Assembly (NCBI RefSeq): GCF_030684315.1
Contig: NC_081365.1
Location: forward strand, 77,166,127 to 77,230,126
Source of the DNA: Stegostoma tigrinum
Taxonomy: Eukaryota
Length of the DNA stretch: 64,000 nt
Reading direction: 5' to 3'
This document shows positions 9,531-64,000 of the stretch, piece after piece; the stretch's first letter is position 1; each line of letters begins with the position of its first letter. Position numbers and translations under genes: made by a program. A model generated the notes under the pieces. The model worked only from the letters and a program-made list of their open reading frames with translations, ran no database searches and was not told the DNA's origin.

Positions 9531-10691
9531 TGGGCCTAACAACTACCTGATTGATGCATCTGCCCACCTACTTTCATTGACTAGTGTACAAAGACATCCA
9601 GATCCCTTTGTACATCCACATCTCTCAATATTTTACCATTTAAACAATAATAGACCTGTACACAATACTCCAAATGCGGCCTAACTGAAGTTCTATACAG
9701 CTGCTACAAGCATTGCCAATTTTTATACCGTGTGCCCAGAATGATGAAGGCAAACGTGCCTTATACCTTCTTTACCACCAATTCCACTTCTGTTGCCAGT
9801 TCCAAGAAACTGTGGACCTGTATACCTAGATCCCTCGTCTGTTGATGAAACTGAAGATTTAGCCATATATTGTCTACTTTCCCCTGATATTAGATCTTCC
9901 AAAAGTGCATCACCTCACATTTTTTCAGATTAAATTCCACCTGCCATTTCTCGGCCCAAGTCTCCAGCCTCTCTATATCCTGTTATATCCTCTGACAATC
10001 CTCTTCACCATCCACAACTCCCCCAATCGCAAATGTACTAATCGTTATCGTTCTCAATTTTTCACATTCCCAATTGACACGGCGCCTCCATGGAGTGAGT
10101 GGGCTCACATCTCCACCCTCCTTTAAGGGAAAAAGAGTCATGCTCCATGTTCTAATCTCCTCTGTCCCCCCCCCCCTCTCCTGCTCTACTAGTGAGGAAT
10201 GTTTCTCTCTCTCTCTGTTTAACCTTGGGAATGTTTGGTGGATTCCAGTTTCTACTCCCACATTATCCCACGGTTTTAGTATGGTTTTCCTTCTATTGTC
10301 TCTGTGATCCCTTTGCTAGCTTGGCGTTGTGTCATTCAAGCAATTATGTCATGTCACCTCCCCCTCCCCCACCCAAAATATCCATGTGTGCCCTTCCATT
10401 AATTAATCTTGGAATGATTTGCTTCATTTCAGCCATTGATTGCAACTGATACTTTGTGCGCTGTGTCTGAAATAATGAGTGGGACAGTGGTCTGGCAGTT
10501 ATTGTTAAACCCCTGGTGCCAGTTAATCTGTTCAGAGGTCAGGTTCATAGGAAGGTTATTGAAATGATCCTTTTCAGCAGCTTACGGTGATGTTTTATCC
10601 AATTACTCTAACCCACATCCTACAAAGGATTGGCATTTATTGAATGTCATTTACCACAACAATTCGTCTGCTTCAATCTATTCCACCTTAC

Positions 10692-11396
10692 CTGGTTTCC
10701 TTTTCTCTTCTTCAGTCTCTTCTTGTTCAGCTTTTTGCAAGCATACAATTTCCCTGTGGCCTTCATCTGACAAGCAGACACCTCGCCAAACCCTCCCTTC
10801 CCCAAGACCCGAAACTCCAGGAACCAGTCCTCCCCAATGGGTTGAGCCTCCAGCCACTTCCACTGCAAGAACCTCATGAAATACATGCTCTCCTTGTAAT
10901 GCTCGAAGGGACTGTCCTCCTTTAAGAATTTCATGGTGGCCTCTTTGCACTCCCTGAAGAGATCCTCTCTGACATTCTCACAGTCCTCTTTCACTCTCAA
11001 GATGCTCTTTTCTTCCAAATAACTGCAGAAGAGCTCAGTCCCCGACTCCAAGAACTTGCTGATAATGTTTCGAGCTTTCTCGAGAAGACCTTCATCTTCT
11101 GCTGTGTCGTACACTTCAATAGCCTTCCAGAGTTCATTGGCCGGTTTGTACTCTGCCACTGAGTCTAAGTATTGCTGGAATAGCTTCTTCCCAATGGGCT
11201 GCTTGACACAGATGCTATCGAAGGCCAAGTCAATCTGCTCCTTCAGCGTTTCGCTCTGGGTGATGTGAGGGAGCTTCAGCTTGGCTCGATATTTCTTATC
11301 CCTGGTCATCTGCAGGTTGGCGGATCCATCGAAACTGCCCCGAGCTGAGATGTACGCGGAGTTGGCCACCACTGTCTGCAGACTCCCCAAATCCAT
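10692..11396 (-). CDS. GRK1: Rhodopsin kinase GRK1 (GRK1B-like), coding exon 1 (235 codons); other exons not found in window
   Basis: [25 protein letters not shown]-terminus, RH domain ([12 protein letters not shown]), kinase start [39 protein letters not shown]; donor CAG|gtaagg at 10692/10691 matches the GRK1 exon-1 boundary. Confidence 0.95.
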
Positions 11397-11574
11397 CCTG
11401 ATGTCTTTGGTTGCTAATTCACTTCAACCAGAGCAAAACCATGTGAGAGATAGAGAGGAGGGGGCGGTGGGGCTCAAAAAATGCACAGCAGGATCCCAAC
11501 ACTCTGGGGCCCTACAACATGCTCAACAACAGAGCAAACAAAAGGAACTGAGGAGAGGGGCTCAGTGTCTGTGC

Positions 11575-26296: not shown

Positions 26297-26599
26297 CTGA
26301 AAGGTGGGAAGACAGGGGTCAGAGCTAGAGAAGATGATTCGGTGGTCAGCAGATACAGCCAGAGAGTAGTAAAGATGTACAGCATGGAGAACACCCTTCG
26401 GCCCAACTCGTACTTGCTGACCAGATATCCTAAATTAATATATTCCCATTTGCCAGCATTTGGCCCATATTCCTCTAAACTCTTCCTATACATATGCCGA
26501 TCCAGATGACTTTTAAATGTTGTAATAGTACCAGCTTCCATCACTTCGTCTGGCAGCTCATTCCATACACACCCTCCACTATTCCATACACACCCTCAC

Positions 26600-28420
26600 A
26601 AAGGCATTTTACACTTACGTGAGGAATAAGAGAATGGTCAAAGAAAGAGTAGGGCCGATCAGGGATAGCATAGGGAACTTGTGTGTGGAGCCTGAGGAGG
26701 TAGGGGAAGCCCTAAATGAGTTTTTTGCTTCTGTCTTTACGAAAGAAACGACCTGTGTAGTGAATGAAACCTTTGAAGAGCAGGTGTGCATGCTGGAATG
26801 GATAGAGATAGAGGAAGCTGATGTACTGAAAATTTTGTCAAACATTAAGATTGACAAGTCGCCAGGCCCGGATCAGATTTGTCCTCGGCTGCTTTGGGAA
26901 GCGAGAAATGCAATTGCTTCGCCACTTGCGAAGATCTTTGCATCCTCGCTCTCCACTGGAGTCGTACCTGAGGACTGGAGAGAGGCAAATGTAATTCCTC
27001 TCTTCAAGAAAGGAAATAGGGAAATCCCCGGCAATTATAGACCGGTAAGTCTCACGTCTGTCGTCTGCAAGGTGTTAGAAAGGATTCTGAGGGATAAGAT
27101 TTATGACCATCTGGAAGAGCATGGCTTGATCAAATACAGTCAACACGGCTTTGTGAGGGGTAGGTCATGCCTTACAAACCTTATCGAGTTTTTTGAGGAT
27201 GTGACTAGTAAGGTTGATGAGGGTCAAGCTGTGGATGTGGTGTATATGGACTTCAGTAAGGCATTTGATAAGGTTCCCCATGGAAGGCTCATTCAGAAGG
27301 TCAGGAGGAATGGGATACAGGGGAACTTAGCTGCTTGGATACAGAATTGGCTGGCCAACAGAAGACAGCGAGTGGTAGTAGAAGGAAAATATTCTGCCTG
27401 GAAGTCAGTGGTGAGTGGGGTTCCACAGGGCTCTGTCCTTGGGCCTCTACTGTTTGTAATTTTTATTAATGACTTGGATGAGGGAATTGAAGGATGGGTC
27501 AGCAAGTTTGCAGACGACACAAAGGTCGGAGGTGTCGTTGACAGTGTAGAGGGCTGTTGTAGGCTGCAGCGGGACATTGACAGGATGCAGAGATGGGCTG
27601 AGAGGTGGCAGATGGAGTTCAACCTGGATAAATGCGAGGTGATGCATTTTGGAAGGTCGAATTTGAAAGCTGAGTACAGGATTAAGGATAGGATTCTTGG
27701 CAGCGTGGAGGAACAGAGGGATCTTGGTGTGCAGATACATAGATCCCTTAAAATGGCCACCCAAGTGGACAGGGTTGTTAAGAAAGCATATGGTGTTTTG
27801 GCTTTCATTAACAGGGGGATTGAGTTTAAGAGTCGTGAGATCTTGTTGCAGCTCTATAAAACTTTGGTTAGACCGCACTTGGAATACTGCGTCCAGTTCT
27901 GGGCGCCCTATTATAGGAAAGATGTGGATGCTTTGGAGAGGGTTCAGAGGAGGTTTACCAGGATGCTGCCTGGACTGGAGGGCTTATCTTATGAAGAGAG
28001 GTTGACTGAGCTCGGTCTCTTTTCATTGGAGAAAAGGAGGAGGAGAGGGGACCTAATTGAGGTATACAAGATAATGAGAGGCATAGATAGAGTCGATAGC
28101 CAGAGACTATTTCCCAGGGCAGAAATGGCTAGCACGAGGGGTCATAGTTTTAAGCTGGTTGGTGGAAAGTATAGAGGGGATGTCAGAGGCAGGTTCTTTA
28201 CGCAGAGAGTTGTGAGAGCATGGAATGCGTTGCCAGCAGCAGTTGTGGAAGCAAGGTCATTGGGGTCATTTAAGAGACTGCTGGACATGCATATGGTCAC
28301 AGAAATTTGAGGGTGCATCCATGAGGATCAATGGTCGGCACAACATTGTGGGCTGAAGGGCCTGTTCTGTGCTGTACTGTTCTATGTTCTATGTTCTATG
28401 TTCTATGTTCTATGTTCTAT
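26600..28420 (+). mobile_element. Young 5'-truncated CR1 with (TTCTATG)n tail, inserted in an older antisense CR1
   Basis: Open ORF, 3' UTR and (ttctatg) repeats at 28380-28419; minus-strand CR1 sequence continues on both sides (26366-26600, 28420-28830). Confidence 0.9.
26619..28310 (+). CDS. CR1 LINE ORF2 (5'-truncated), uninterrupted reverse transcriptase domain
   Basis: 563 aa with NYRPVSLTS, YMDFSKAFDKV, GVPQGSVLGP and KFADD RT motifs. Confidence 0.92.
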   Translation: MRNKRMVKERVGPIRDSIGNLCVEPEEVGEALNEFFASVFTKETTCVVNETFEEQVCMLEWIEIEEADVLKILSNIKIDKSPGPDQICPRLLWEARNAIASPLAKIFASSLSTGVVPEDWREANVIPLFKKGNREIPGNYRPVSLTSVVCKVLERILRDKIYDHLEEHGLIKYSQHGFVRGRSCLTNLIEFFEDVTSKVDEGQAVDVVYMDFSKAFDKVPHGRLIQKVRRNGIQGNLAAWIQNWLANRRQRVVVEGKYSAWKSVVSGVPQGSVLGPLLFVIFINDLDEGIEGWVSKFADDTKVGGVVDSVEGCCRLQRDIDRMQRWAERWQMEFNLDKCEVMHFGRSNLKAEYRIKDRILGSVEEQRDLGVQIHRSLKMATQVDRVVKKAYGVLAFINRGIEFKSREILLQLYKTLVRPHLEYCVQFWAPYYRKDVDALERVQRRFTRMLPGLEGLSYEERLTELGLFSLEKRRRRGDLIEVYKIMRGIDRVDSQRLFPRAEMASTRGHSFKLVGGKYRGDVRGRFFTQRVVRAWNALPAAVVEARSLGSFKRLLDMHMVTEI

Positions 28421-36582: not shown

Positions 36583-36766
36583 AGATAATAAAATGTGAGG
36601 CTGGATGAACACAGCAGGCCAAGCAGCATCTCAGGAGCACAAAAGCTGACGTTTAGGGCCTAGACCCTTCATCATGATGAAGGGTCTAGGCCCGAAACGT
36701 CAGCTTTTGTGCTCCTGAGATGCTGCTTGGCCTGCTGTGTTCATCCAGCCTCACATTTTATTATCT
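36583..36766. repeat. 92-bp-arm palindrome (1 mismatch, no spacer) made of two Penelope terminal repeats
   Basis: agataataaaatgtgagg...cccttcatca|tgatgaaggg...cctcacattttattatct; axis 36674/36675; element extends left to ~36545. Confidence 0.92.
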
Positions 36767-50441: not shown

Positions 50442-52625
50442 CACTAGTTGGGGATTCTAGAACTGTGGGCATAGTCTGAGAATTTAGGACCAGGCCATTC
50501 AGGAGAGACGTTAGGAAGAAAGTCTACACACAAAGGGTGGTAAATGTTTGGATTTCTCTTCCACAAATGGCTATGGGTGTTGGATCTGTTGTCAATTTTA
50601 ATTCTGAGATAGACATCCTTTTGTTAAGGAAAGGTATTAAGGGAAACAAGTCAAAAGCAGGTTATTGGAGTTAGGTCACAGATTAGTCATGACCTCATTG
50701 TGGAGCTGAATGGCCTATTGGTGTTGTTATAGATGCCATTCCCCTCCCATTCCTGAGGTACAAAACTTCTACCATCAGTGCTAAACCCTTCCTACAGTTC
50801 AACAGAGGTGAATATTCCAACCTCCGAAACTCTGGGATGTTAGGAAGGAAATTTCCGCAGCTGGACATGATGACCTGGGATGTACTACCCAACAAGGGCA
50901 CAGACAAGACATCAATCCGAACCATCAAAAAGAAACCAGATGTCTATCTGAACCAGGCAAATCTCTCTTGGCTTCAAGGAAATTGCCAGCAGCTGGTGCT
51001 TTGGGATAGCACACAACCGCTGTCAATTGCGCTGAATGGGATCTTTCAGTTTATATCAACTCACTGCATGAAAGAAATTTAATGGAAGTTTATCTTATGA
51101 TTTATTGGAGGAAATCCAAGTCAAAATAAAGATTCCATTGAGACCTGACCATTCTGATGTGACATCATCAATCTGAAATGTTAACTCTGTTTCTCTCGAA
51201 ATCAGATGTTGGCAGGCCTGCTGAGTTCCTCCAACATTTTGTTTGTATTTCGGATCTTCCAATGATTTCCATTTGCATTGCTCCAAAAATCATCCTCTAA
51301 CTCAACATCAAGTGGCACACAATTTGATTTATAAGTTACATAAAGTTACACAGAACAATGTTATCACCCAGAGAGTGGGGAGACTAAGGAATGCAGTGCC
51401 TGGGAGTGTAGTTGAGGCAGGAAACCTCACAACTTATGTAAAAGTACTTGGATGAGCACTTTAAGTGTCATAACGTTCAAGGCTATGGGCCGATTGCAAG
51501 AAAGAATGGGAAGTAGTATGTAGTTGGCAGCATCGACTCAATGGACTGAAGGGCTTCTTCCATAGAAACCGCAAAAAGTGGGCCAATCTTCTCTATGTCA
51601 ATCCAAACGCACCCAGATCCCTTCGCTAACCCTATCTTGCTGCACACAGCCCATAGCCCTGTAGCCTACAGCACATAAGGTGCATCTCCAGGTACCTTTT
51701 CTTTAAAAATTAGTTTAGGTTCTCCAATTTCGCCACTGATTTAGGCAGCAAATTTCAGATACCAACCTTTATGCAAAATCATTTTCCCCTCTCATCCCTT
51801 CTAAAATTCCTGCCACGTTCGTTGAAACTATATCCCCTAGTTTTTGACCTCTCTGCCGGGGGAAATCGGGTTCAGCCTGTCTACTCCATCTCTACTCCTG
51901 ACAATTTTGAACACAACGCAGTACAGTTCTATGATTTAAGCAACTGACCCTCCCAGACAATGATGAATCCCAGACAGAGAAATGCCAGATTACACCAGAT
52001 ATTGGCAATCACATCGACTGGGGACCATTCAGATGAATCATCGTGAACTATGTTAATGTTGTACAGGGCTTTGGTGAGGCCTTTTCTTGAGTTCTGTGTC
52101 CAGTTCTGGCTAAAGGAAGGTTATTAAGCTGGAGAGGGTTTAGAGAAGATTGACCAGCACGTCACTGGGAATAGAGGGTTTAACTTATGAAAAGCTGGAG
52201 AGTCTGGGACCTTTACTCGCTGCAGCACAGGAGGTTGAGGGGTAAGCTTATAGATGTTGATACAATCATGAGAAGGATAAATAAAGTCACTGACTGGTGC
52301 CATTCCGAGAGTGAAGGATTTTCAAAGTTAGTGGACACATTAAGGTGAAGGGAGAAAGAATTTTAAAAAAAAGTCATGACTGATTGTTTTTAAAAAAGAA
52401 AATTAAAATGAGTGGCTCACGTGAAGAATAAACTTCCAGAGGAAGTGGTTGATGTGGGTACAGTTACAACATTTAAAAGACATTTGGATAAATACATGAA
52501 TAGGAAAGGCTTGGAGGGATATGGGCCAAGCGCAGGCAGGTGGGACGAGGCTCTTGTGAAGAGGATAATAAAGTGTGAAGCTGGATGAACACAGCAGGTC
52601 CAGCAGCATCTCAGGAGCACAAAAG

Positions 52626-52658
52626 CTGACGTTTCGGGACTAGTCCCTTCATCAGAGA
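52626..52658 (-). ncRNA. Minimal hammerhead ribozyme core within a Penelope terminal repeat (~52564-52660)
   Basis: Minus: uCU CUGAUGA A GGGAC UA GUCCC GAAA CGUC AG; all core residues intact, stem I only ~2 bp. Confidence 0.65.
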
Positions 52659-52840
52659 GGAGTGAAGAGGAGCTTGGGATGATGGTTGGCATGGACTGGT
52701 TACACCAAAGGGTCTGTTTCTGTGCTATATCAATCTACGACTAATAATAAGACTCTGCAAAGCAAACTGGAAAACTGTCATATTTGGGCATAAAGACGAA
52801 AACCAACTTGACACCGAAAATTATAGTTGGGAAGCAAACG

Positions 52841-52846
52841 TTTATT
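52841..52846 (-). terminator. Probable poly(A) signal of GDF copy A
   Basis: AATAAA on minus strand ~90 nt after the stop codon. Confidence 0.55.
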
Positions 52847-52934
52847 GTGGGCGAGAAATCAATTACATTAAGATGGCTAACTGCAGCAGCACAGGAACTG
52901 AATTTAAAAAAACAACTTTGCCTGGAGAGAGATC

Positions 52935-53737
52935 TCATCGACAACCGCACTCATCCACCACCATTTCATCGTAATGTCTCAGGACAACATTGTCATTGTT
53001 ATCATAATAGAGCATGGAGATCGGGGAGAGTTTAATGGGTACACAGCAGGGTTGGGGAGTGTCCTCAGGGTCAGTGGCATGCACCAGAGTTTGCAGAATG
53101 GCGTGGTTGGTGCCATTCAGGCTCTCGCTGAGTGGGTAAGGGCACTCCCCGTGGCAATAGTTAGCCATGTAGCCCTGGGGCGCGATGATCCAGTGCTGCC
53201 AGCCCACGTCCCTGAACTGGATGTGGAGCCTCCTGCGTTTGCAGACTCGGCTGAAGGCCGGAGGCAGGTGGAAGGAGCTCCTCTTCCTCCTTGACGTCCG
53301 GCATCTCTCCCGGTTCAGGCTCACCACCAGCAGAGAGGCGCGCAGGGCCAGGCCGAGGGGGGCACAGGCCGAGCCCGCTACCTGCCGGCCTCCCGTCGTG
53401 GGGCTGCCCACCTCCAGGATGGCACCCGGGTTACCGCTGCGCTGCCTCCAGGCCCTGGAGCTGGTGGTCAGGTCGAAGTTGAGGGAGACGTGAAGGTTCT
53501 GGAAGGACTGTGAGGAGATGAGGCTCGGCCTGGAGTGGGGAGTCACTCCCACCTTCCAGAGGGACAGGGTGCAGGTTTCCCCTGCTGTCCCAGGGAGTGG
53601 GTACGGCCCTCCCGGGAGACTCAGCTCCAGCTGGGCCAACGTCAGCTCCTCCGCCTCTTGCAGCACCGACAGGTTGAAGTAGAGTCTTCTCCGAGAGCAC
53701 AGCCACGGCTGGGATCCCAGGCCAGAGATTGGGCCCC
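52935..53737 (-). CDS. GDF3: Vg1/GDF1/GDF3 (derriere/DVR1-like) copy A, exon 2 (rest of prodomain, RRKR furin site, mature cystine knot)
   Basis: Acceptor gtttgtcag|GG, phase 1; [76 protein letters not shown], close to zebrafish Dvr1 and Xenopus Vg1/derriere; symbol is family-level only. Confidence 0.93.
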
Positions 53738-53759
53738 CTGACAAACAAGGGATAGGATA

Positions 53760-54320
53760 ATAATTTACATTTATATAGCGCCGCCAACCTACTCAAACAT
53801 CCCGAGGTGCTATAGAGCAAAGACAAACATACACAGAGTTAAGGGGTCAGGCAACACAAAGATCAGCCAAGGAAATACGTTTCATTTAAATCAATTAAAG
53901 CAATCTTGAGAATCAGGAAACCTCAGAGCCTGCGGCTGATGCAACTGAATGCACGGCCACCAGTGACAGAGCCATTGAAACTCGGAATGCAACAAGAGGC
54001 GAGAGAATGCTGATATCTCAGAGGGTTTTGGAATTGGAGGAGAAAACAGAAAGAGGGAGGGGCAAGGCCATGGAGGGATCTGAAAAGCAAGATGAGAATT
54101 CTTTTTAAACAACTGAGATGTCGCTTGAGCAGGAGCTGCTGTAGATCGGACAGCAGAAGGACAGATAAGGAAACAGACTGGCTGCAAATTAAGGCAAAGG
54201 AAACAGCATCTTGGATAATCGAACTTCCAGAGAATTGTACATCAGAGAGGAGCCAGGAGTATGTGAGAATAGCCAAGTCTGGAGTTGGATGAGAATTTCA
54301 GCAGCAAATGATCTGAGACA
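53760..54320 (-). mobile_element. L2 LINE 3' fragment in the GDF intron (continues ~55456-55930; mirrored in right arm)
   Basis: ILILLFRSLHGLAP...GGRAFS is the L2 ORF2 C-terminus. Confidence 0.7.
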
Positions 54321-54324
54321 GGAC

Positions 54325-54950
54325 CATAAGACCATAAGACATAGGTGGAAGTAAAGCTATTCAGTCCATCAAGTCCACTCCGCCATTTAAATCATGGCTG
54401 ATGGGCATTTCAACTCCACTTCACTGCACTCTCCCTGTAGCCCTTAATTCCTTCTGAGATCAAGAATTTGTCGATCTCTACCTTGAAGGCATCCAACGTC
54501 CCGGCCTCCACTGCACTCCGCGGCAATGAATTCCACAAGCCCACCACTCTTTGGCTGAAGAAATGTCGTCTCATTTCAGTTTTAAATTTACCCCCCTCTA
54601 ATTTTAAGGCTGTGCCCACAGGTCCGAGTCTCCCCACCTAACGGAAACAACTTCCTAGCGTCCACCCCTTCTAAACCATACATTATCTTGTAAGTTTCTA
54701 TTAGATCTCCCCTCAACCTTCTAAACTCTAATGAGTACAATCCCAGGATCCTTAGCCGTTCAACATACGTTAAACCTACCATTCCAGGGATCATCCATGT
54801 GAATCTCCGTTGGACACGCTCCAGCGCTAGTATGTCCTTCCTGAGGTGTGGGGCCCAAAATTGGACACAATATTCTAAATGGGGCCTAACTAGAGCCTTA
54901 CAAAGCCTCAGAAGCACATCGCTGCTTTTATATTCCAAGCCTCTTGACAT
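54325..54950 (-). mobile_element. Young CR1 3' fragment in the GDF intron (mirror copy 62908-63540)
   Basis: [15 protein letters not shown]...RGDLIETYKIM peptide. Confidence 0.85.
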
Positions 54951-54981
54951 CATGTAGGTGGAAATTACTGGTTTCAGTGAG

Positions 54982-55438
54982 AAAGACGCTCTTTGGTCTG
55001 CCTGTAACTTGCTGGTCTGCCAGCTGAAAGACCTGACCCCAACCGAATGTTGCAGACTGGCGCACTCCAAGGTCCAGGACTACGTGCTGAGGGACCCGCT
55101 GAAGCTTGGGGCAGCCGCCGCCAAGGCGCGGTGGGGAAAGACCATGGTATGAAACCCCTTGTCCAGAATAGAAAAAAAGGGCCCTATCTGGTAACTGGGC
55201 CCAGCTGGCATCTTCCCCAACTGGTCAGGGGGCCAACGGGGACTGTGCGGGGTGACGACTGCCGGGGTGTTTTCTTTGCTTTGTTTCTTTTTTCTTCTTT
55301 GTTTGTTTTTTTTCCTTTAGTTGGTGTACGTACCCCCTGGGTAACCCGGAGCGGCTTGCATGACTGGGTAGGTGTATAAATATGTTTTATGTTTTGTACA
55401 TCTTATGAATAAAGTATATTTTTTCAAATAAAAAAAAA
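54982..55438 (+). mobile_element. Tx1/L1-clade LINE 3' end with poly(A) and ~20-bp TSD (mirror copy ~62422-62879)
   Basis: KDALWSACNLLV..ECCRLAHSKVQDYVLRDPLKLGAAAAKARWG*; aataaa and A tail; aaattactggtttcagtgag at 54962-54981 and 55436-55455. Confidence 0.75.
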
Positions 55439-56690
55439 TTACTGGTTTCAGTGAGGAGATTGGAAGCTCATCTTGGGGTCAGATGTGACACCAAGTTTGT
55501 GAACAGATATGTAAATAAGTGATGAGTTGGAGACCATGGGGGAGTGGAGAGAGGTGGTGCTGATAGAGAAAGAGCCAGGAGCTGTCAGTGTGATCAGAGA
55601 GATAGAAATAGGAAGGTGTGGGGGTGGGGGTGGGTGAAGGTGAAATGGAATCTGGAGACAAATGGGAGATGGGGTCAAGGGGAAGGTTTGGATGCTTGTT
55701 CAGGCCAACAGTTGTTTTTCTGAGGCAACAGCAGATTTAAAAGAGAGGGAGGGAAAACACTTGAACACATGTTCCCGAATGTTAAACATCTGCACAACCA
55801 GCAAATGGGGCAGATCAAAACAGCCCTCTGGGTGGGCACGCTGACCCCAGGCTGATCCCTCCAACACAGAGTTGCACACTGACCCCAAGTTGACAACAAA
55901 TTCCCCTCCTCACCCCTCGTTTCCAGGTGACACAAACCCCAGGCTGACCTCCCCTCCTCCCTGGTAATGCCAAGCCCACACAGACACCACTTGCCTCAGG
56001 AACTCAGACAGAGCTGTCCCCCAGCCCTCCCAAAGGAAACAGGGACTCCCCGATTGACAGCCCAACCCTACACCAAAGCGGATGGGGGTCTACCAGTTAA
56101 GGTAAAGTTGTGATAACAATTAAAGGCTCAAATACATTCACCAGTCATTGATACCCAGCCAGAAGTGATAACAGAGCCTCCCACATTCCTCAACAGGACA
56201 GGAGCAGTGCAGCCCCCTTCCGGGGTATGGAGTGTCATTCAGAATTTACTACAGGCAGGGGATACAGGGTTTACCACAGGCACAGGATCCTGCCGCTCTG
56301 CAATCCCTGCCAATGGTTATCCCCTGCTCCGGGTTCCTCACAAATTTTGTTTCTCTCATCCTGTCAGCAGCTCTTTCCCGACATTTCCTCCTCATTAAAT
56401 TTTCCCTCAAAACCCTATTGATGATATTTCAGAGATAGTAGGAACTGCAGATGCTGGAGAATCTGAGGTAACAAGGTGTAGAGCTGGATGAACACAGCAG
56501 GCCAAGCAGCATCAGAGGAGCAGGAAGGGTCTAGGCCTGAATGCTGCTTGGCCTAGTGATGATATTGTCCTCACTCTGGGTGGTAGTGAGTACCAGATTC
56601 TAATCAGCGAGGAGTATCCAGCCTGGCTGACCCCTCTCAGCCTCCTCTCCCTCCCCACCCTCCCACTCACTCTGCCTCAGGGTTACTTAC

Positions 56691-56985
56691 CCAGATCAGG
56701 AAGATGACGGACTGTGTCTCCATCCACCCCCAGCTCATCCACTCGGCACGGGTCAGCTCCCGCCTGGTCGTCCTGGTGGGCGAGGGGCCTGGACCTCCTG
56801 TGGTACATTTTCCAGAACCGAGCTGGCACAGGCCTGGGCTCAGAGGGCCGGGGCCTGTTCTGTAAACCCAACGCTTTTAGAAAAGCCTTCTCCCGAGCCA
56901 GGGGCTCCAACAGCAGCTCCCCCAAACTGACTGGGCAAAGGAACATCACAGTGAAACAGAGAGGGAGCCAGCCAAATGCAACCAT
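56691..56985 (-). CDS. GDF3: Vg1/GDF1/GDF3-like copy A, exon 1 (signal peptide and prodomain start)
   Basis: ATG at 56985 (acaATGG); MVAFGWLPLCFTVMFLCPVSLG signal peptide, FLKALGL..RP....PVP..FWKMY, PCRVDELGVDGDTVRHLPDLG; donor G|gtaagt, phase 1; spliced CDS 1098 nt = 365 aa. Confidence 0.9.
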
Positions 56986-58097
56986 TGTTAGCTCTGGGAG
57001 CAAAGACTCAAGGAGTAATGATGGGCAGGGAGAACCCTGGGCCCAGCTCCTGTTACAAACCAGGGTCAGATTCAATCACCCAGTTAAGTGTTGATTAAAG
57101 CTCTCTCTCTCTCTTTCTCTCTCTCTCACATTCACTCTTTCTCTCTAATTAACATTTCAACAGGGAGTTCCTGGAGACTGCCTCACATTCTGGGGCTATG
57201 GGGAAACAAGGAACTCACCTCCCTTCCTGCTTCTACCATTTGGGACCCTGACTGCTGGTATTCCTGGGTTTGAATTAGCTGTCAATGCACATCAATTCTC
57301 ACCTATGGCATGTGCTCAGTGGCTCTTCAAAGGAGCCGAATAATGGTGTTTGCATCTGAAAGGAGCTCTCTCCCATCCCAGACACTTCACTGCTGGACTT
57401 CATGTTAATGTCATAATCTCCCCTTCGTTTCAGACAACTCTGAGGATCCTCCCAGACTGGAGTGTGTATTCCTGGTAGTCTGCAGGGACAGGCTTCCAAC
57501 TGTCAGGCCAAACAGAAATTCAGCCTTTCAACTCAAGAATGATCAGTCTTTCTTTGAGCATCAAGAATTTGGGAGGAATAGACAAATCTAGGCACGGAAA
57601 AGCACTCAGAGTTACTGATCTTTAGAAAAAAATAGATTATTAAGGCTAATAGGATTGGATTGCAGCCCAGAAAGTGGCCACAGTACCCTCTACCCCTCTG
57701 TGCTGTGCCCCCACACCCCCCCCAAGCAAAAGCAATCATTTCTGCACAGCCCTGCATTTTACCTGATTTGAGCTGATGATTCCGGTCTCATTTGAAGGCC
57801 TAAATTGAACCATTGTTATCAGACTGTTGAAAGGACCTCTCTCTGCACCCTCTCAGCAGCTGTAACACTGTACCTGTGCTCTGTTCTGTCGCCCTCATAC
57901 ACATGCATAGTACGATCTGTCAGTAAAGCATGTTAGACGACACTTTTCACAGTATCTTAGTACATGTTACAATATTAAATCAAACCTGTCCCCACTACTC
58001 GATCAGGAGGGCGTTCCTGACCAAATCTACCTGATGTGCAAGAAGATGTTCTCCCTACATCTCAAGATGTAGGAACAGAAGTACCCCATTCAGCCCA

Positions 58098-59146
58098 GAT
58101 AACAAGGTGTGGAGCTGGATAAGCACAGCTGGCCAAGCAGCACCTTAGGAGCTCTTATAGTGTCTTACTACGCATCATCCTCCGACACTTCCGCCATCTA
58201 CAATCCAACCCCACCACCCAAGACATTTTTCCATCCCCAACCTTGTCTGCTTTCCGGAGAGACCACTCTCTCCGTGACTCCCTGGTCTGCTCCACATTGC
58301 TCTCCAACGCCACCACACCCGGCACCTTCCCCTGCAACCGCAGAAAGTGCTACACTTGCCCCCACACCTCCTCCCTCACCCCCATCCCAGGCCCCAAGAT
58401 GACTTTCCACAGTAAGCAGATGTTCACCTGCACATCTGCTGATGTGGTATACTGTATCCATTATACCCGGTGTGGCTTCCTCTACATTGGGAAAACCAAG
58501 CGGAGGCTTGGGGACCACTTTGCAGAATACCTCCGCTCGGTTCGCAATAAACAACTGCACCTCCCAGTCGCGAACCATTTTAACTCCGCCTCCCATTCCT
58601 CAGACGACATGTCCATCATGGGCCTCCTGCAGTGCCACAATGATGCCACCCGAAGGTTGCAGGAACAGCAACTCATATTCCGCTTGGGAACCCTGCAGCC
58701 CAATGGTATCAATGTGGACTTCACATGCTTCAAAATCTCCCCCTCCCCACTGCATCCCAAAACCAGCACAGCTCATCCCCGCCTCCCTAATCTGTTCTCC
58801 CTCTCACCTATCCGCTCCTCCCACCTCAAGTCGCACCTCCATTTCCTACCTACTAACCTCATCCCGCCTCCTTGACCTGTCTGTCCTCCCCGGACTGACC
58901 TATCCCCTCCCCACCTCCCCACCTATACTCTCCTCTCCACCTGTCTTCTTTTCTCTCCATTTTCGGTCCGCCTCCCCCTCTCTCCCTATTTATTCCAGAA
59001 CCCTCTCCCCATCCCCCTCTCTGATGAAGGGTCTAGGCCCGAAACGTCAGCTTTTGTGCTCCTGAGATGCTGCTTGGCCTGCTGTGTTCATCCAGCTCTA
59101 CACCTTGTTATCTCAGATTTTCCAGCAACTGCAGTTCCTCTTACAA
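58098..59146 (+). mobile_element. 5'-truncated Penelope-like element: inverted terminal piece, GIY-YIG endonuclease, terminal repeat; 11-bp TSD
   Basis: ORF 58243-58875 CNRRKCYTC...VVYCIHYTRCGFLYIGKTKRRL..HF.E...VANHFN...EQQLIFRLGTLQPNGIN; cattcagccca at 58087-58097 and 59147-59157. Confidence 0.88.
59018..59051 (+). ncRNA. Minimal hammerhead ribozyme core in the Penelope terminal repeat
   Basis: uCU CUGAUGA A GGGUC UA GGCCC GAAA CGUC AG; predicted cleavage after C59048. Confidence 0.7.
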
Positions 59147-59326
59147 CATTCAGCCCATTGGAGCTACACCAAGATCCAATGATACTCTGTCTTCATGACT
59201 ACTTTTGTCTTTACTTGGAGGCCCCTGATTCTCTATCCCAGCCCCACAGGGAATGGTTCCTCCCTACTGACAATGTCCAGGCTCTCTTGACGATTTAGAA
59301 TAATGGAATGTCAAGTCTCACCTCAA

Positions 59327-59373
59327 AGTCAGTTTGGGGGAGTTGCTGTTGGAGCCCCCGGCTCGGGAGAAGG
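59327..59373 (+). pseudogene. 47-bp orphan fragment of GDF exon 1
   Basis: 45/47 identical to 60519-60565 (agtcagtttgggggag(c/t)tgctgttggagcccc(t/c)ggctcgggagaagg). Confidence 0.9.
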
Positions 59374-60465
59374 ACATAAAGGATTGGTAACTGTTAAATA
59401 TGTCTAAATGACACCACATCTCCAAAACAGAATTCAGCACTACACATTAAATGTAAGAACAGACTTGGCAGGGAGCACTGTACAGCTTGATACTCACCAG
59501 CTTAATAACGCTGTTAAAGGGTTAAATTCTGAAAACTGGCTCCACAGAACAGGCTTGTCCTTCCTCATCGTTCCCCTGGTGAGGAGTTCAAGCTAATTGA
59601 AGGGGATGGTAAGATGACTGAAGTTGTTGATATGTCAGGGAGAGAGGGATGATTGCCTCTGTTTGAGGGGGGAGTCCAGGATGGGGCAGGTGGGTGAAAG
59701 CATGACCTTAAAACAGAGCCGACCCATTTACAACAAGGGGTGTGCGTTTATGGCACTCTCTCCTCCAAAACAGCAGCTGAAAATTCTGAAGCTAAGTTTA
59801 GCAGATTTATGTTGGATTTAGGCAAAAATAATAACAGAACTGAAATGGATAGCTGAGGTTGGGCCACAAATAAATGAGTTGAATGGTTTATGTTAGTTTG
59901 AAGGGCTGAATGGCCTCTTCCAATTGCTGAACTATAAAGTAAAGCCATGTTGCTGCTGATTCCTTCTCTCTGAACAAGTTCGATTAGGAGTAATGTAGAT
60001 GAACGGTCTGGTTATGTGAAATCTGCGAAGCCCGTGTATCTGATGTTAGTCCCTATCAGTGAAGTGTCTGGGATGGGAGAGAGCTCCTTTCAGATGCAAA
60101 CACCATTATTCGGCTCCTTTGAAGAGCCACTGAGCACATGCCATAGGTGAGAATTGATGTGCATTGACAGCTAATTCAAACCCAGGAATACCAGCAGTCA
60201 GGGTCCCAAATGGTAGAAGCAGGAAGGGAGGTGAGTTCCTTGTTTCCCCATAGCCCCAGAATGTGAGGCAGTCTCCAGGAACTCCCTGTTGAAATGTTAA
60301 TTAGAGAGAAAGAGTGAATGTGAGAGAGAGAGAGAGAGAGAGAGTGTGAGCTTTAATCAACACTTAACTGGGTGATTGAATCTGACCCTGGTTTGTAACA
60401 GGAGCTGGGCCCAGGGTTCTCCCTGCCCATCATTACTCCTTGAGTCTTTGCTCCCAGAGCTAACA

Positions 60466-60760
60466 ATGGTTGCATTTGGCTGGCTCCCTCTCTGTTTCAC
60501 TGTGATGTTCCTTTGCCCAGTCAGTTTGGGGGAGCTGCTGTTGGAGCCCCTGGCTCGGGAGAAGGCTTTTCTAAAAGCGTTGGGTTTACAGAACAGGCCC
60601 CGGCCCTCTGAGCCCAGGCCTGTGCCAGCTCGGTTCTGGAAAATGTACCACAGGAGGTCCAGGCCCCTCGCCCACCAGGACGACCAGGCGGGAGCTGACC
60701 CGTGCCGAGTGGATGAGCTGGGGGTGGATGGAGACACAGTCCGTCATCTTCCTGATCTGG
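60466..60760 (+). CDS. GDF3: Vg1/GDF1/GDF3-like copy B, exon 1; exon 2 expected ~126 bp past the window end
   Basis: Translation identical to copy A exon 1; ATG 60466, donor G|gtaagt at 60760/60761. Confidence 0.9.
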
Positions 60761-60904
60761 GTAAGTAACCCTGAGGCAGAGTGAGTGGGAGGGTGGGGAG
60801 GGAGAGGAGGCTGAGAGGGGTCAGCCAGGCTGGATACTCCTTGCTCATTAGAATCTGGTACTTACTACCACCCAGAGTGAGGACAATATCATCACTAGGC
60901 CAAG

Positions 60905-61315
60905 ATAATAAAATGTGAGGCTGGATGAACACAGCAGACCAAGCAGCATCTCAGGAGCACAAAAGCTGACGTTTCGGGCCTAGACCCTTGATCAGAGAGG
61001 GGGATGGGGGGAGGGAACTGGAATAAATAGGGAGAGAGGGGGAGGCGGACCGAAGATGGAGAGTAAAGAAGATAGGTGGAGAGGGTGTAGGTGGGGAGGT
61101 AGGGAGGGGATAGGTCAGTCCAGGGAAGACGGACAGGTCAAGGAGGTGGGATGAGGTTAGTAGGTAGCTGGGGATGCGGCTTGGGGTGGGAGGAAGGGAT
61201 GGGTGAGAGGAAGAACCGGTTAGGGAGGCAGAGACAGGTTGGACTGGTTTTGGGAGCTGGGGATGCGGCTTGGGGTGGGAGGAAGGGATGGGTGAGAGGA
61301 AGAACCGGTTACAAG
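60905..61315 (-). mobile_element. Penelope terminal-repeat insertion private to copy B intron; hammerhead core mutated (CUGAUCA)
   Basis: Absent from left arm (empty site at ~56547-56550); caag at 60901-60904 and 61312-61315; internal ~55-bp duplication at its end. Confidence 0.85.
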
Positions 61316-64000
61316 CAGCATTCAGGCCTAGACCCTTCCTGCTCCTCTGATGCTGCTTGGCCTGCTGTGTTCATCCAGCTCTACACCTTGTTACCTCAGA
61401 TTCTCCAGCATCTGCAGTTCCTACTATCTCTGAAATATCATCAATAGGGTTTTGAGGGAAAATTTAATGAGGAGGAAATGTCAGGAAAGAGCTGCTGACA
61501 GGATGAGAGAAACAAAATTTGTGAGGAACCCGGAGCAGGGGATAACCATTGGCAGGGATTGCAGAGCGGCAGGATCCCGTGCCTGTGGTAAACCCTGTAT
61601 CCCCTGCCTGTAGTAAATTCTGAATGACACTCCATACCCCGGAAGGGGGCTGCACTGCTCCTGTCCTGTTGAGGAATGTGGGAGGCTCTGTTATCACTTC
61701 TGGCTGGGTATCAATGACTGGTGAATGTATTTGAGCCTTTAATTGTTATCACAACTTTACCTTAACTGGTAGACCCCCATCCGCTTTGGTGTAGGGGTGG
61801 GCTGTCAATCGGGGAGTCCCTGTTTCCTTTGGGAGGGCTGGGGGACAGCTCTGTCTGAGTTCCTGAGGCAAGTGGTGTCTGTGTGGGCTTGGCATTACCA
61901 GGGAGGAGGGAGGTCAGCCTGGGGTTTGTGTCACCTGGAAACGAGGGGTGAGGAGGGGAATTTGTTGTCAACTTGGGGTCAGTATGCAACTCTGTGTTGG
62001 AGGGATCAGCCTGGGGTCAGCGTGCCCACCCAGAGGGCTGTTTTGATCTGCCCCATTTGCTGGTTGTGCAGATGTTTAACATTCGGGAACATGTGTTCAG
62101 GTGTTTTCCCTCCCTCTCTTTTAAATCTGCTGTTGCCTCAGAAAAACAACTGTTGGCCTGAACAAGCATCCAAACCTTCCCCTTGACCCCATCTCCCATT
62201 TACCTCCAGATTCCATTTCACCTTCACCCACCCCCACCCCCACACCTTCCTATTTCTATCTCTCTGATCACACTGACAGCTCCTGTCTCTTTCTCTATCA
62301 GCACCACCTCCCTCCACTCCCCCATGGTCTCCAAATCGTCACTTATTTACATATCTGTTCACAAACTTGGTGTCACATCTGACCCCAAGATGAGCTTCCA
62401 ATCTCCTCACTGAAACCAGTAATTTTTTTTATTTGAAAAAATATACTTTATTCATAAGATGTACACAAAATAAACCATATTTATACACCTACCCAGTCAT
62501 GCAAGCCGCTCCGGGTTACCCAGGGGGTACGTACACCAACTAAAGGAAAAAAAAACAAACAAAGAAGAAAAAAGAAACAAAGCAAAGAAAATACCCCAGC
62601 AGTCGTCACCCCGCACAGTCCCCGTTGGCCCCCTGACCAGTTGGGGAAGATGCCAGCTGGGCCCAGTTACCAGATAGGGCCCTTTTTTTCGATTCTGGAC
62701 AAGGCGTTTCATACCATGGTCTTTCCCCACCGCGCCTTGGCGGCGGCTGCCCCAAGCTTTAGCGGGTCCCTCAGCACGTAGTCCTGGGCCTTGGAGTGCG
62801 CCAGTCTGCAACATTCGGTTGGGGTCAGTTCTTTCAGCTGGCAGACCAGCAAGTTACAGGCAGACCAAAGAGCGTCTTTCTCACTGAAACCAGTAATTTC
62901 CACCTACAAGATGTCAAGAGGCTTGGAATATAAAAGCAGCGATGTGCTTCTGAGGCTTTGTAAGGCTCTAGTTAGGCCCCATTTAGAATATTGTGTCCAA
63001 TTTTGGGCCCCACACCTCAGGAAGGACATACTAGCCCTGGAGCGTGTCCAACGGAGATTCACACGGATGATCCCTGGAATGGTAGGTTTAATGTATGTTG
63101 AACGGCTAAGGATCCTGGGATTGTGCTCATTAGAGTTTAGAAGGTTGAGGGGAGATCTAATAGAAACTTGCAAGATAATGTATGGTTTAGAAGGGGTGGA
63201 CGCTAGGAAGTTGTTTCCATTAGGTCGGGAGACTAGGACCTGTGGGCACAGCCTTAAAATTAGAGGGGGGTAAATTTAAAACTGAAATGAGACGACATTT
63301 CTTCAGCCAGAGAGTGGTGGGCTTGTGGAATTCATTACCGCGGAGTGCAGTGGAGGCCGGGACGTTGGATGCCTTCAAGGTAGAGATCGACAAATTCTTG
63401 ATCTCAGAAGGAATTAAGGGCTACGGGGAGAGTGCAGGGAAGTGGAGTTGAAATGCCCATCAGCCATGATTTAAATGGCGGAGTGGACTTGATGGACCGA
63501 ATAGCTTTACTTCCACTCCTATGTCTTATGGTCTTATGGTCCTGTCTGAGATCATTTGCTGCTGAAATTCTCATCCAACTCCAGACTTGGCTATTCTCAC
63601 ATACTCCTGGCTCCTGTCTGACGTACAATCCTCTGGAAGTTCGATTATCCAAGATGCTGTTTCCTTTGCCTTAATTTGCAGCCAGTCTGTTTCCTTATCT
63701 GTCCTTCTGCTGTCTGATCTACAGCAGCTCCTGCTCAAGCGACATCTCAGTTGTTTAAAAAGAATTCTCATCTTGCTTTTCAGATCCCTCCATGGCCTTG
63801 CCCCTCCCTCTTTCTGTTTTCTCCTCCAATTCCAAAACCCTCTGAGATATCAGCATTCTCTCGCCTCTTGTTGCATTCCGAGTTTCAATGGCTCTGTCAC
63901 TGGTGGCCGTGCATTCAGTTGCATCAGCCGCAGGCTCTGAGGTTTCCTGATTCTCAAGATTGCTTTAATTGATTTAAATGAAACGTATTTCCTTGGCTGA

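What the first reader, a model, noticed from the sequence alone, without database searches (positions are those of the whole stretch)
53863..64000. Head-to-head palindromic duplication of a Vg1/GDF1/3 (derriere-like) morphogen gene
Seen: 60057-64000 is the reverse complement of 53863-57392 around a 2664-bp spacer, giving two divergent copies with ATGs 3.5 kb apart and intact donor sites. Copy A is complete (365 aa). Known: Vg1/GDF1/3 ligands are dosage-sensitive Nodal partners, and palindromic gene pairs can be maintained by arm-to-arm conversion. Inference: this is a lineage-specific dosage duplication or an amplicon-type palindrome. The arms differ by substitutions and a private insertion, which argues against a simple read-foldback artefact.
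Basis: partly seen in the sequence, partly recalled or inferred. Interest (0 to 1): 0.85.

Follow-up and report, generated by a model that had tools for sequence, protein, structure and literature searches.

The report
Old mirror-image Vg1 pair in sharks
A carpet shark carries two intact, back-to-back copies of the embryo-patterning gene Vg1 (GDF1/3) with identical coding sequence; the pair is likely much older than it looks and likely kept alike by one copy overwriting the other, a known process, here on a gene published as single-copy in cartilaginous fishes.

Summary
The arms are 52758-57392 (gene A, minus) and 60057-65105 (gene B, plus; partly beyond the window) around a 2,664-bp spacer. 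Both genes are intact, with identical 1,098-bp coding sequences; the intron differs at 43 of 2,953 sites. The gene is Vg1/GDF1/3, not derrière, and RefSeq already lists both copies. The pair is real and older than this species. A relative about 9% diverged shows matching arm edges and doubled arm depth. A 71%-identical relic of the duplication lies beyond a transposon insertion. A young LINE piece sits in both arms. Six of 12 shark species have two records, mostly grouping by species. Best reading: an old inverted duplication homogenised by arm-to-arm gene conversion (0.88). A species-specific origin, a sex-chromosome amplicon and an artefact are not supported, and dosage selection is unshown. 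The pair also sits away from the BMP2-FERMT1 site published for non-tetrapods. This is a known process on a new gene, parallel to the shark LeftyA/B pair. The scan noted a similar TLR2 case in another cartilaginous fish, but not this gene.

The parts
52758..57392 (-). Arm A (4,635 bp): 407 bp upstream of the ATG to 177 bp past the stop
   Evidence: contigs of run X1 end exactly at 52758 and 57392
56691..56985 (-). Vg1/GDF1/3 copy A, coding exon 1 (signal-peptide-like N-terminus and prodomain start)
   Evidence: GT donor
52935..53737 (-). Copy A, coding exon 2 (prodomain, RRKR cleavage motif, TGF-beta domain, stop)
   Evidence: PF00019, E 2.7e-38
52841..52846 (-). AATAAA polyadenylation-signal-like hexamer, copy A (copy B at 65017)
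   Evidence: use not shown
57393..60056 (.). Unique spacer (2,664 bp) between the two 5' ends; repeat element at about 58090-59140
   Evidence: spacer contigs at about half the arm depth
59327..59373 (+). 47-bp copy of part of exon 1 (45/47 identical) stranded in the spacer
   Evidence: covered without differences by contigs of X1 and X2
60057..64000 (+). Arm B; continues beyond the window to 65105 (G000:C14:77231231)
60466..60760 (+). Copy B, coding exon 1; exon 2 lies beyond the window at 64126-64928, intact
60901..61315 (+). 411-bp repeat-derived insertion private to arm B (edges uncertain by a few bases)
   Evidence: 95% identical to another dispersed copy
54327..54950 (.). Young LINE-like piece present in both introns (mirror at 62911-63536)
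   Evidence: 97.6% arm to arm, 93-94% to dispersed copies
54984..55439 (.). Poly-A-tailed insertion with a target-site duplication of about 20 bp, present in both introns
52052..52757 (.). Old repeat insertion (about 700 bp) at the outer edge of arm A, where homogenisation stops
51936..52051 (-). Unconverted relic of the duplication: 84/118 identical to 65119-65234 beyond arm B, collinear
   Evidence: score 44 vs at most 22 in 200 shuffles
10650..11423 (-). Neighbour: first exon of a GRK1-type (rhodopsin kinase) gene

Best explanation
This is a head-to-head pair of intact Vg1/GDF1/3 genes with identical coding sequence, likely from an old inverted duplication shared at least by carpet sharks and likely kept alike by repeated arm-to-arm gene conversion. 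Shown: two full genes, four unique edges, a steep identity gradient (CDS 0%, intron 1.5%, relic 26%), and matching edges in a relative. Inferred mechanism: a break in one arm is repaired from the other arm 2.7 kb away. A non-crossover copies sequence, including whole transposon insertions. A crossover would only flip the spacer, so neither copy is lost. Conversion stops where an insertion broke homology (52052-52757), which left the diverged relic. Inferred function, from zebrafish and catshark work: both genes would make the same ligand, which acts only as a heterodimer with Nodal in mesendoderm and left-right patterning. The second copy is likely tolerated, because excess Vg1 is inert, and likely protected from decay by conversion rather than selected for dose.
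For: (1) Within this species the arms differ at 45 of about 4,630 sites. Organism B differs from them by about 6.3% (five arm contigs) and by 8.9% in the spacer (three contigs), yet B has matching edges. An arm contig starts at 60057 and another aligns from 52759. Arm contigs have depth 30.2-38.5 and spacer contigs 10.8-17.8. (2) Near the 3' end, two separate B contigs carry the same letters that differ from both arms here (8 listed sites, table 3). All 8 listed B differences in exon 2 are third codon positions. Silent changes are therefore fixed in both copies per species, which protein selection alone cannot explain. (3) The relic beyond the arm edge is 84/118 identical, about 0.32 changes per site (95% range 0.21-0.48), against 0.095 for the split from B. 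(4) A LINE piece 93-94% identical to its two closest dispersed copies, so younger than the relic, sits at the same place in both arms. (5) Differences are clustered: the longest identical run is 1,390 bp (1 of 200,000 permutations), CDS vs intron p=2e-6, and 587 non-coding bases inside that run are also identical, p=2e-4. (6) Two records exist in 6 of 12 shark species. They differ by 0-6 aa within species against 48-51 aa between Stegostoma and the bamboo sharks, and 4 of the 5 pairs entered as two rows group by species.
Against: Listed contigs overlap the inner edges by only 30 letters (X1, X2) or 15-24 letters (X11), below the tool's 31-letter bridging rule, and no listed piece spans both arms. 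X1 and X2 are one study, and either may be the assembly's own sample. Gene orientation is not known for any named species other than this one. Six of 12 shark species show one annotated gene. The Hemiscyllium pair is not resolved as a clade. Identity at 197 fourfold sites alone is only marginal (p=0.056). The relic is short (118 columns). No expression data for either copy.
Confidence: 0.88

Rival explanations
1. Recent duplication confined to this species; near-identity just reflects youth, and pairs in other sharks arose independently.
For: Overall arm identity is 99%. Pairs group by species, which independent duplications would also give. Six of 12 shark species show one annotated gene.
Against: Matching edges and doubled arm depth in organism B, which is 6-9% diverged. 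A 71% relic outside the arms. Differences are strongly non-uniform. One residue (alignment column 203, Leu) marks the second-numbered copy in both Hemiscyllium and C. punctatum (a single site, could be parallel).
Confidence: 0.04
2. The pair is old and converted, but is kept by selection: either for double dose of Vg1, or because the two identical proteins are driven by different upstream sequences (only 407 bp upstream of the ATG are shared) and serve different times or tissues, as Vg1 and derrière do in frogs (recalled). This is compatible with the best explanation on history and differs on why the pair persists.
For: All annotated pairs keep open frames in exon 2, apart from a 4-aa gap in one Pristiophorus model. 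Homogenisation is tightest over exons and the proximal 5' region. The sequence upstream of the ATG is conserved as far as Heptranchias. Rescue of gdf3 mutants was assessed for dose dependence (PMC5745076, passage).
Against: Overexpressed wild-type Vg1/Gdf3 has no effect and joins an inert pool (PMC5745085, PMC5745076, PMC10794066, passages). Six shark species and 9 ray species appear to manage with one annotated gene. Conversion alone explains intact frames.
Confidence: 0.3
3. Assembly artefact: read fold-back, or two haplotypes joined in inverted orientation.
For: A 1,390-bp stretch is perfectly identical. No listed contig spans both arms.
Against: Unique sequence lies on all four sides. Contigs break at the arm edges with about twice the spacer depth in two samples and in a second species. 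RefSeq has two genes on one chromosome in Stegostoma, Hemiscyllium, C. punctatum and Heptranchias.
Confidence: 0.01
4. Sex-chromosome amplicon palindrome of the primate X/Y type.
For: Same geometry (arms plus spacer) and signs of conversion.
Against: The elasmobranch X carries Gdf11 (PMC12952989 and bioRxiv 2025.03.13.642935, passages). The best GDF11 match here is on C64 (19.6 Mb), not on C14 (82 Mb). The arms are 4.6 kb.
Confidence: 0.02

Closest known systems
Lefty1/Lefty2 of eutherians and LeftyA/LeftyB of cartilaginous fishes (PMC12344233; passages and section 19 read)
   Same: Linked pair of TGF-beta-family genes of the Nodal pathway, with tree patterns explained by gene conversion. That paper also names Bmp8a/b.
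   Different: Shark Lefty starts are 60 kb apart, one is nested in Sde2, and the pairs resolve per major lineage. Here the ATGs are 3.5 kb apart, pairs mostly resolve per species, the CDS is fully identical, and the gene is Nodal's partner, not its inhibitor.
Vg1/GDF1/3 (DVR-1), with the anuran Vg1/derrière and mammalian GDF1/GDF3 duplications (PMC6134012; passages and section 6 read)
   Same: Same gene lineage, and a further duplication of it.
   Different: That paper reports one copy in chondrichthyans (synteny checked in elephant shark), beside BMP2 and FERMT1. Here there are two copies that have not diverged, on another chromosome, between a GRK1-type and a BTB-kelch gene.
Amphioxus Gdf1/3-like (PMC10794066; passages read)
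   Same: Gdf1/3 duplicated and moved away from Bmp2/4.
   Different: Amphioxus keeps the ancestral copy and the moved copy diverged. Here no copy was found at the BMP2 site and the two copies are homogenised.
Primate X/Y palindromes with arm-to-arm conversion (recalled, not read)
   Same: Inverted arms with a unique spacer, kept near-identical by conversion.
   Different: Likely autosomal, one gene, 4.6-kb arms, and 1.5% intron divergence instead of near-total identity.

Membership tests
TGF-beta superfamily ligand | Prodomain, basic cleavage site and C-terminal cystine-knot domain | tested here: met
   PF00688 and PF00019 both over cut-off; RRKR before the mature domain and the seven-cysteine pattern are visible in the sequence
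Vg1/GDF1/3 (DVR-1) | Groups with named Vg1/DVR-1/GDF1 proteins to the exclusion of BMP2/4 and GDF5/6-type rows | tested here: met
   Quick tree, SH-aLRT 99, nested with the catshark Vg1 record AKP17192.1 (the careful search did not finish; Nodal and ADMP not included). The named best hits for the 87%-identical P0002 are DVR-1/GDF1/GDF3, hypothetical or TGF-beta-domain records, with one labelled ceramide synthase 1 isoform. Copy A is identical to RefSeq 'protein DVR-1' P0004.
Vg1/GDF1/3 (DVR-1) | Non-tetrapod synteny with BMP2 and FERMT1 | tested here: not met
   BMP2-type gene at C11:10.20 Mb with a FERMT gene at C11:10.69 Mb; a second BMP/FERMT pair on C12; no Vg1 hit at either. The PDB search listed no BMP4, so the BMP2/BMP4 assignment partly rests on recalled motifs. 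Read as a translocation, since the elephant-shark protein finds only the two C14 copies as close matches (63% vs weaker BMP hits).
Vg1/GDF1/3 (DVR-1) | Works as an obligate heterodimer with Nodal | not tested
   From zebrafish papers (PMC5745085, PMC5745076, passages); no complex was folded
Derrière (anuran GDF3) | Member of the anuran-specific duplicate clade | tested here: not met
   Shark rows form their own clade apart from the two Ascaphus rows; the duplication is anuran-specific per PMC6134012
Concerted evolution by gene conversion | Paralogs more alike within species than orthologs between species, with a shared origin | tested here: met
   1.0% arm to arm vs about 6.3% to organism B with matching edges; protein pairs
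Concerted evolution by gene conversion | Patchy identity, sharp edges and diverged homology outside the tract | tested here: met
Concerted evolution by gene conversion | Shared polymorphism between copies in a population; GC bias of converted sites | not testable with these tools
   Contigs drop variants. GC3 is 74% vs 43% GC in the window, with no single-copy ortholog DNA to compare.
Sex-chromosome ampliconic palindrome | Located on X or Y | tested here: not met
   Indirect: the X marker GDF11 is on C64 and the pair is on C14; male/female depth not tested

The most novel reading that the evidence does not exclude
Vg1/GDF1/3 left its ancestral BMP2 neighbourhood and duplicated head-to-head once, in the ancestor of all living sharks. 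Conversion has hidden the duplication ever since, and catsharks, lamnids and horn sharks lost or mis-assembled one copy. The two identical ligands run on different enhancers. Sharks would then hold both Nodal's partner and its inhibitor Lefty as conversion-maintained pairs.
Probability: 0.25. Interest if true: 0.65.

Novelty: new member of a known kind. Interest (0 to 1): 0.45.

Why it matters
It changes the published picture of one GDF1/3 gene beside BMP2 in cartilaginous fishes: some sharks have two, at another site. It adds a further duplication of Nodal's obligate partner, one that conversion hides from protein trees and that short-read assemblies would tend to collapse. The locus is a compact natural record of how conversion keeps a developmental gene pair alike: it holds a dated relic, shared insertions and fixed edges. 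For bamboo-shark embryology, probes, read counts and knockouts aimed at Vg1 would hit two genes at once.

Tried and rejected
- No RNA holder was listed for the stretch; this says nothing on expression.
- In organism B, no contig covered positions 54763 and 55160 inside the two shared intron insertions, and the LINE family had far lower summed depth. This hints that the insertions postdate the species split, but an uncovered part proves nothing, so it is not counted.
- Run X18 (organism C) covered only repeats (16 of 30 bins) and was uninformative. The joint and loose-end tables were swamped by repeats.
- No diverged homology was found between the two halves of the spacer, apart from repeat pieces.
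- The FoxH1-like motif AATMMACA (recalled) occurs once in each arm's 5' flank, but the window has 17 matches against 14 expected, so it was rejected as evidence.
- No CERS1-type (PF03798) match was found on C14 (13 matches elsewhere), so there is no sign of the tetrapod CERS1-GDF1 linkage.
- Rfam gave 1 match in 51000-64000, far below its gathering score.
- The genome search with the relic found only itself and missed even the 71% partner. It excludes a close repeat family, not an ancient one.
- The careful tree did not finish; the quick tree was used. It held 31 of the Vg1/GDF1/3 proteins retrieved plus 4 G000 outgroups; isoforms and unnamed rows were left out.
- No structure or complex was folded: the family is clear and Vg1-Nodal is a textbook pair.
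- Eight literature searches showed no paper describing a shark Vg1 pair. Subscription journals, including the Evol Dev version of Opazo 2019 and Lagadec 2015, were not searched, and no supplements were read; the supplementary datasets of PMC6134012 could list shark sequences.
Full report
OBSERVATION. The inverted duplication is in the sequence as described: 53863-56550 pairs with 64000-61312 at 98.3%, and 56547-57392 pairs with 60904-60057 at 99.2%, around a 2,664-bp spacer. With neighbouring stretches of the own genome the arms are 52758-57392 and 60057-65105, with different sequence on all four sides. Each arm holds one two-exon gene from 407 bp upstream of the ATG to 177 bp past the stop, including an AATAAA. 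Copy B's exon 2 lies at 64126-64928, the splice sites are canonical, and the two 1,098-bp coding sequences are identical.

THE GENE. The 365-aa product has a TGF-beta prodomain and mature domain. It is identical to the RefSeq protein held under two consecutive accessions, XP_059505988.1 and XP_059505989.1, named DVR-1 and DVR-1-like, Stegostoma tigrinum, so both genes are already annotated. In a quick tree of 31 Vg1/GDF1/3 rows and 4 BMP/GDF outgroups from this genome, it nests among shark Vg1 with the catshark Vg1 record. It is not derrière, which arose in anurans (PMC6134012, passages). These two are the only close matches in the genome to the mature domain or to the elephant-shark protein.

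SYNTENY. PMC6134012 (section 6 and passages read) reports a single gene in chondrichthyans, beside BMP2 and FERMT1. Here BMP/FERMT pairs lie on C11 and C12 with no Vg1 hit near them. The pair lies on C14 between a GRK1-type gene in the window (10650-11423) and a BTB-kelch gene about 56-60 kb beyond arm B. I infer a translocation; its date is unknown. C14 is likely an autosome: the X marker GDF11 (PMC12952989 and bioRxiv 2025.03.13.642935, passages) matches best on the 19.6-Mb C64.

IS IT REAL? Contigs of four public runs were laid on 52300-61500. In X1, arm contigs end exactly at 52758 and 57392 with depth 30.3-37, while spacer contigs (57363-58126, 59110-60086) have 17.6 and 19.1. X2, a second sample of the same study, gives 10.1-12.1 against 6.9-7.3, and one contig runs 434 letters past the outer edge into sequence that is not flank A. 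The inner overlaps are 30 letters, as expected at a branch point but below the tool's 31-letter bridging rule. No piece spans both arms, and either run may be the assembly's own sample. X18 covered only repeats. With the pairs in other genera (below), an artefact is very unlikely.

HOW OLD? Four lines say it is much older than 1% divergence suggests. (a) Organism B (run X11) differs by about 6.3% in the arms and 8.9% in the spacer, yet shows the same architecture. An arm contig starts at 60057 and another aligns from 52759 with 1,086 further letters unlike flank A. Arm depth is 30.2-38.5 and spacer depth 10.8-17.8, and both spacer halves abut the gene's 5' flank (overlaps 15 and 24 letters). 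Its head-to-head orientation is inferred, since no contig crosses the spacer's repeat. (b) Beyond arm A's outer edge lie about 700 bp of old repeats, and then homology to flank B resumes: 51936-52051 against 65119-65234, 84/118 identical, E 1e-14, score 44 against at most 22 in 200 shuffles. That is about 0.32 changes per site (0.21-0.48), roughly 2 to 5 times the split from organism B, and it is a minimum age. (c) A 624-bp LINE-like piece, 93-94% identical to its two closest dispersed copies, sits at the same place in both introns (97.6% arm to arm). It is younger than the relic, so it was likely copied across. (d) Among 12 shark species returned, six have two records: Stegostoma, Hemiscyllium ocellatum, Chiloscyllium punctatum, C. 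plagiosum (one on a 5.4-kb unplaced scaffold), Heptranchias perlo and Pristiophorus japonicus (no contig data). Six have one: Heterodontus, Mustelus, Cetorhinus, Carcharodon and two Scyliorhinus. The 9 named rays show only isoform-type multiples as far as names tell (15 of 28 members of the skate cluster were listed; Rhinoraja's four accessions carry no isoform label). Within-species pairs differ by 0, 3, 6, 2, 2 and 3 residues, against 48-51 between Stegostoma and the bamboo sharks; 4 of 5 two-row pairs group by species, and the Hemiscyllium pair is unresolved. Whether carpet sharks and the two squalomorphs share one duplication is open.

CONVERSION SIGNATURE. Differences are not spread evenly: CDS 0/1098, intron 43/2953 (p=2e-6), and a 1,390-bp identical run (1 of 200,000 permutations) that includes 587 non-coding bases. 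Fourfold sites alone are marginal (p=0.056). But all 8 listed exon-2 differences to organism B are third positions on a double-depth contig, and two separate B contigs share their differences near the 3' end (only the best-supported rows were shown). Silent changes thus spread to both copies within each species. A 47-bp piece of exon 1 stranded in the spacer (45/47) fits template switching during repair; this is an inference.

MECHANISM. Shown: anatomy, identity gradient, shared edges, relic. Inferred: repair of breaks from the neighbouring arm; inverted orientation means crossovers would flip the spacer and not delete a gene; conversion ends where insertions broke homology. By family knowledge, the product is processed and active only with Nodal (PMC5745085, PMC5745076, passages). 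Catshark Vg1 is expressed at the posterior margin before gastrulation (PMC1847705, passages) and on the left of the diencephalon (PMC8569936, passages). I favour tolerated redundancy preserved by conversion. Selection for dose or for separate regulation (only 407 bp of upstream sequence are shared) remains a live rival at about 0.3.

COMPARISON AND NOVELTY. It works like the Lefty pairs of mammals and cartilaginous fishes (PMC12344233, passages and section 19). In the passages read, that paper discusses Gdf1/3 only as duplicated in mammals. Eight library searches showed no description of a shark Vg1 pair; subscription journals and supplements were not seen. BioRxiv 483974 (part 1 of 3 read) likewise names amphibians and mammals as the only exceptions to one copy; PMC3296468 (passages) added nothing on sharks. 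The scan's own notes hold nothing on this genome or gene but include an analogous TLR2 pair in a cartilaginous fish, unchecked here. Verdict: a new member of a known kind, interest 0.45.

Noticed in passing
window 58090-59140, 60905-61315, 56400-56546, 52550-52660: Copies of one very abundant repeat. The spacer copy carries a partial reading frame, and the short copies have CTGATGA...CGAAAC motifs. From memory this resembles a Penelope-like element with a hammerhead ribozyme; Pfam and Rfam did not confirm it.
   Followed up: partly
window 59327-59373: A 47-bp copy of Vg1 exon 1 in the spacer, in B's orientation and 1.1 kb upstream of B's ATG; likely a repair-templated insertion.
   Followed up: partly
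window 10650-11423 (-): First exon of a GRK1-type rhodopsin kinase gene (RGS domain plus kinase start).
   Followed up: partly
L006:8846-10000 and L007:2306-2983 (-): Two-exon BTB-kelch gene about 56-60 kb beyond arm B; KBTBD6/7-like by recall.
   Followed up: partly
window 60376-60465 and mirror 56986-57075: The stretch upstream of the ATG is conserved to Heptranchias. A pyrimidine-rich run ending in CAG lies 8 bases before the ATG and could be a splice acceptor for an untranslated first exon in the spacer.
   Followed up: no
tree: The carpet-shark stem branch of Vg1 is long (0.21) compared with other shark branches; GC3 of the gene is 74%. Faster prodomain evolution or GC-biased conversion was not tested.
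   Followed up: no
window 36583-36766: A 184-bp near-perfect palindrome with no spacer (98.9%).
   Followed up: no
window 26529-28391: LINE reverse-transcriptase frame of 593 aa (PF00078), 95.5% identical to a copy about 110 kb downstream.
   Followed up: no
window 56547-57094 / 60357-60904, runs X1 and X2: A 583-letter contig carries A-type letters in X1 and B-type letters in X2, each with 35 extra letters that do not fit that arm. This may be assembler simplification or real A/B recombinants.
   Followed up: no
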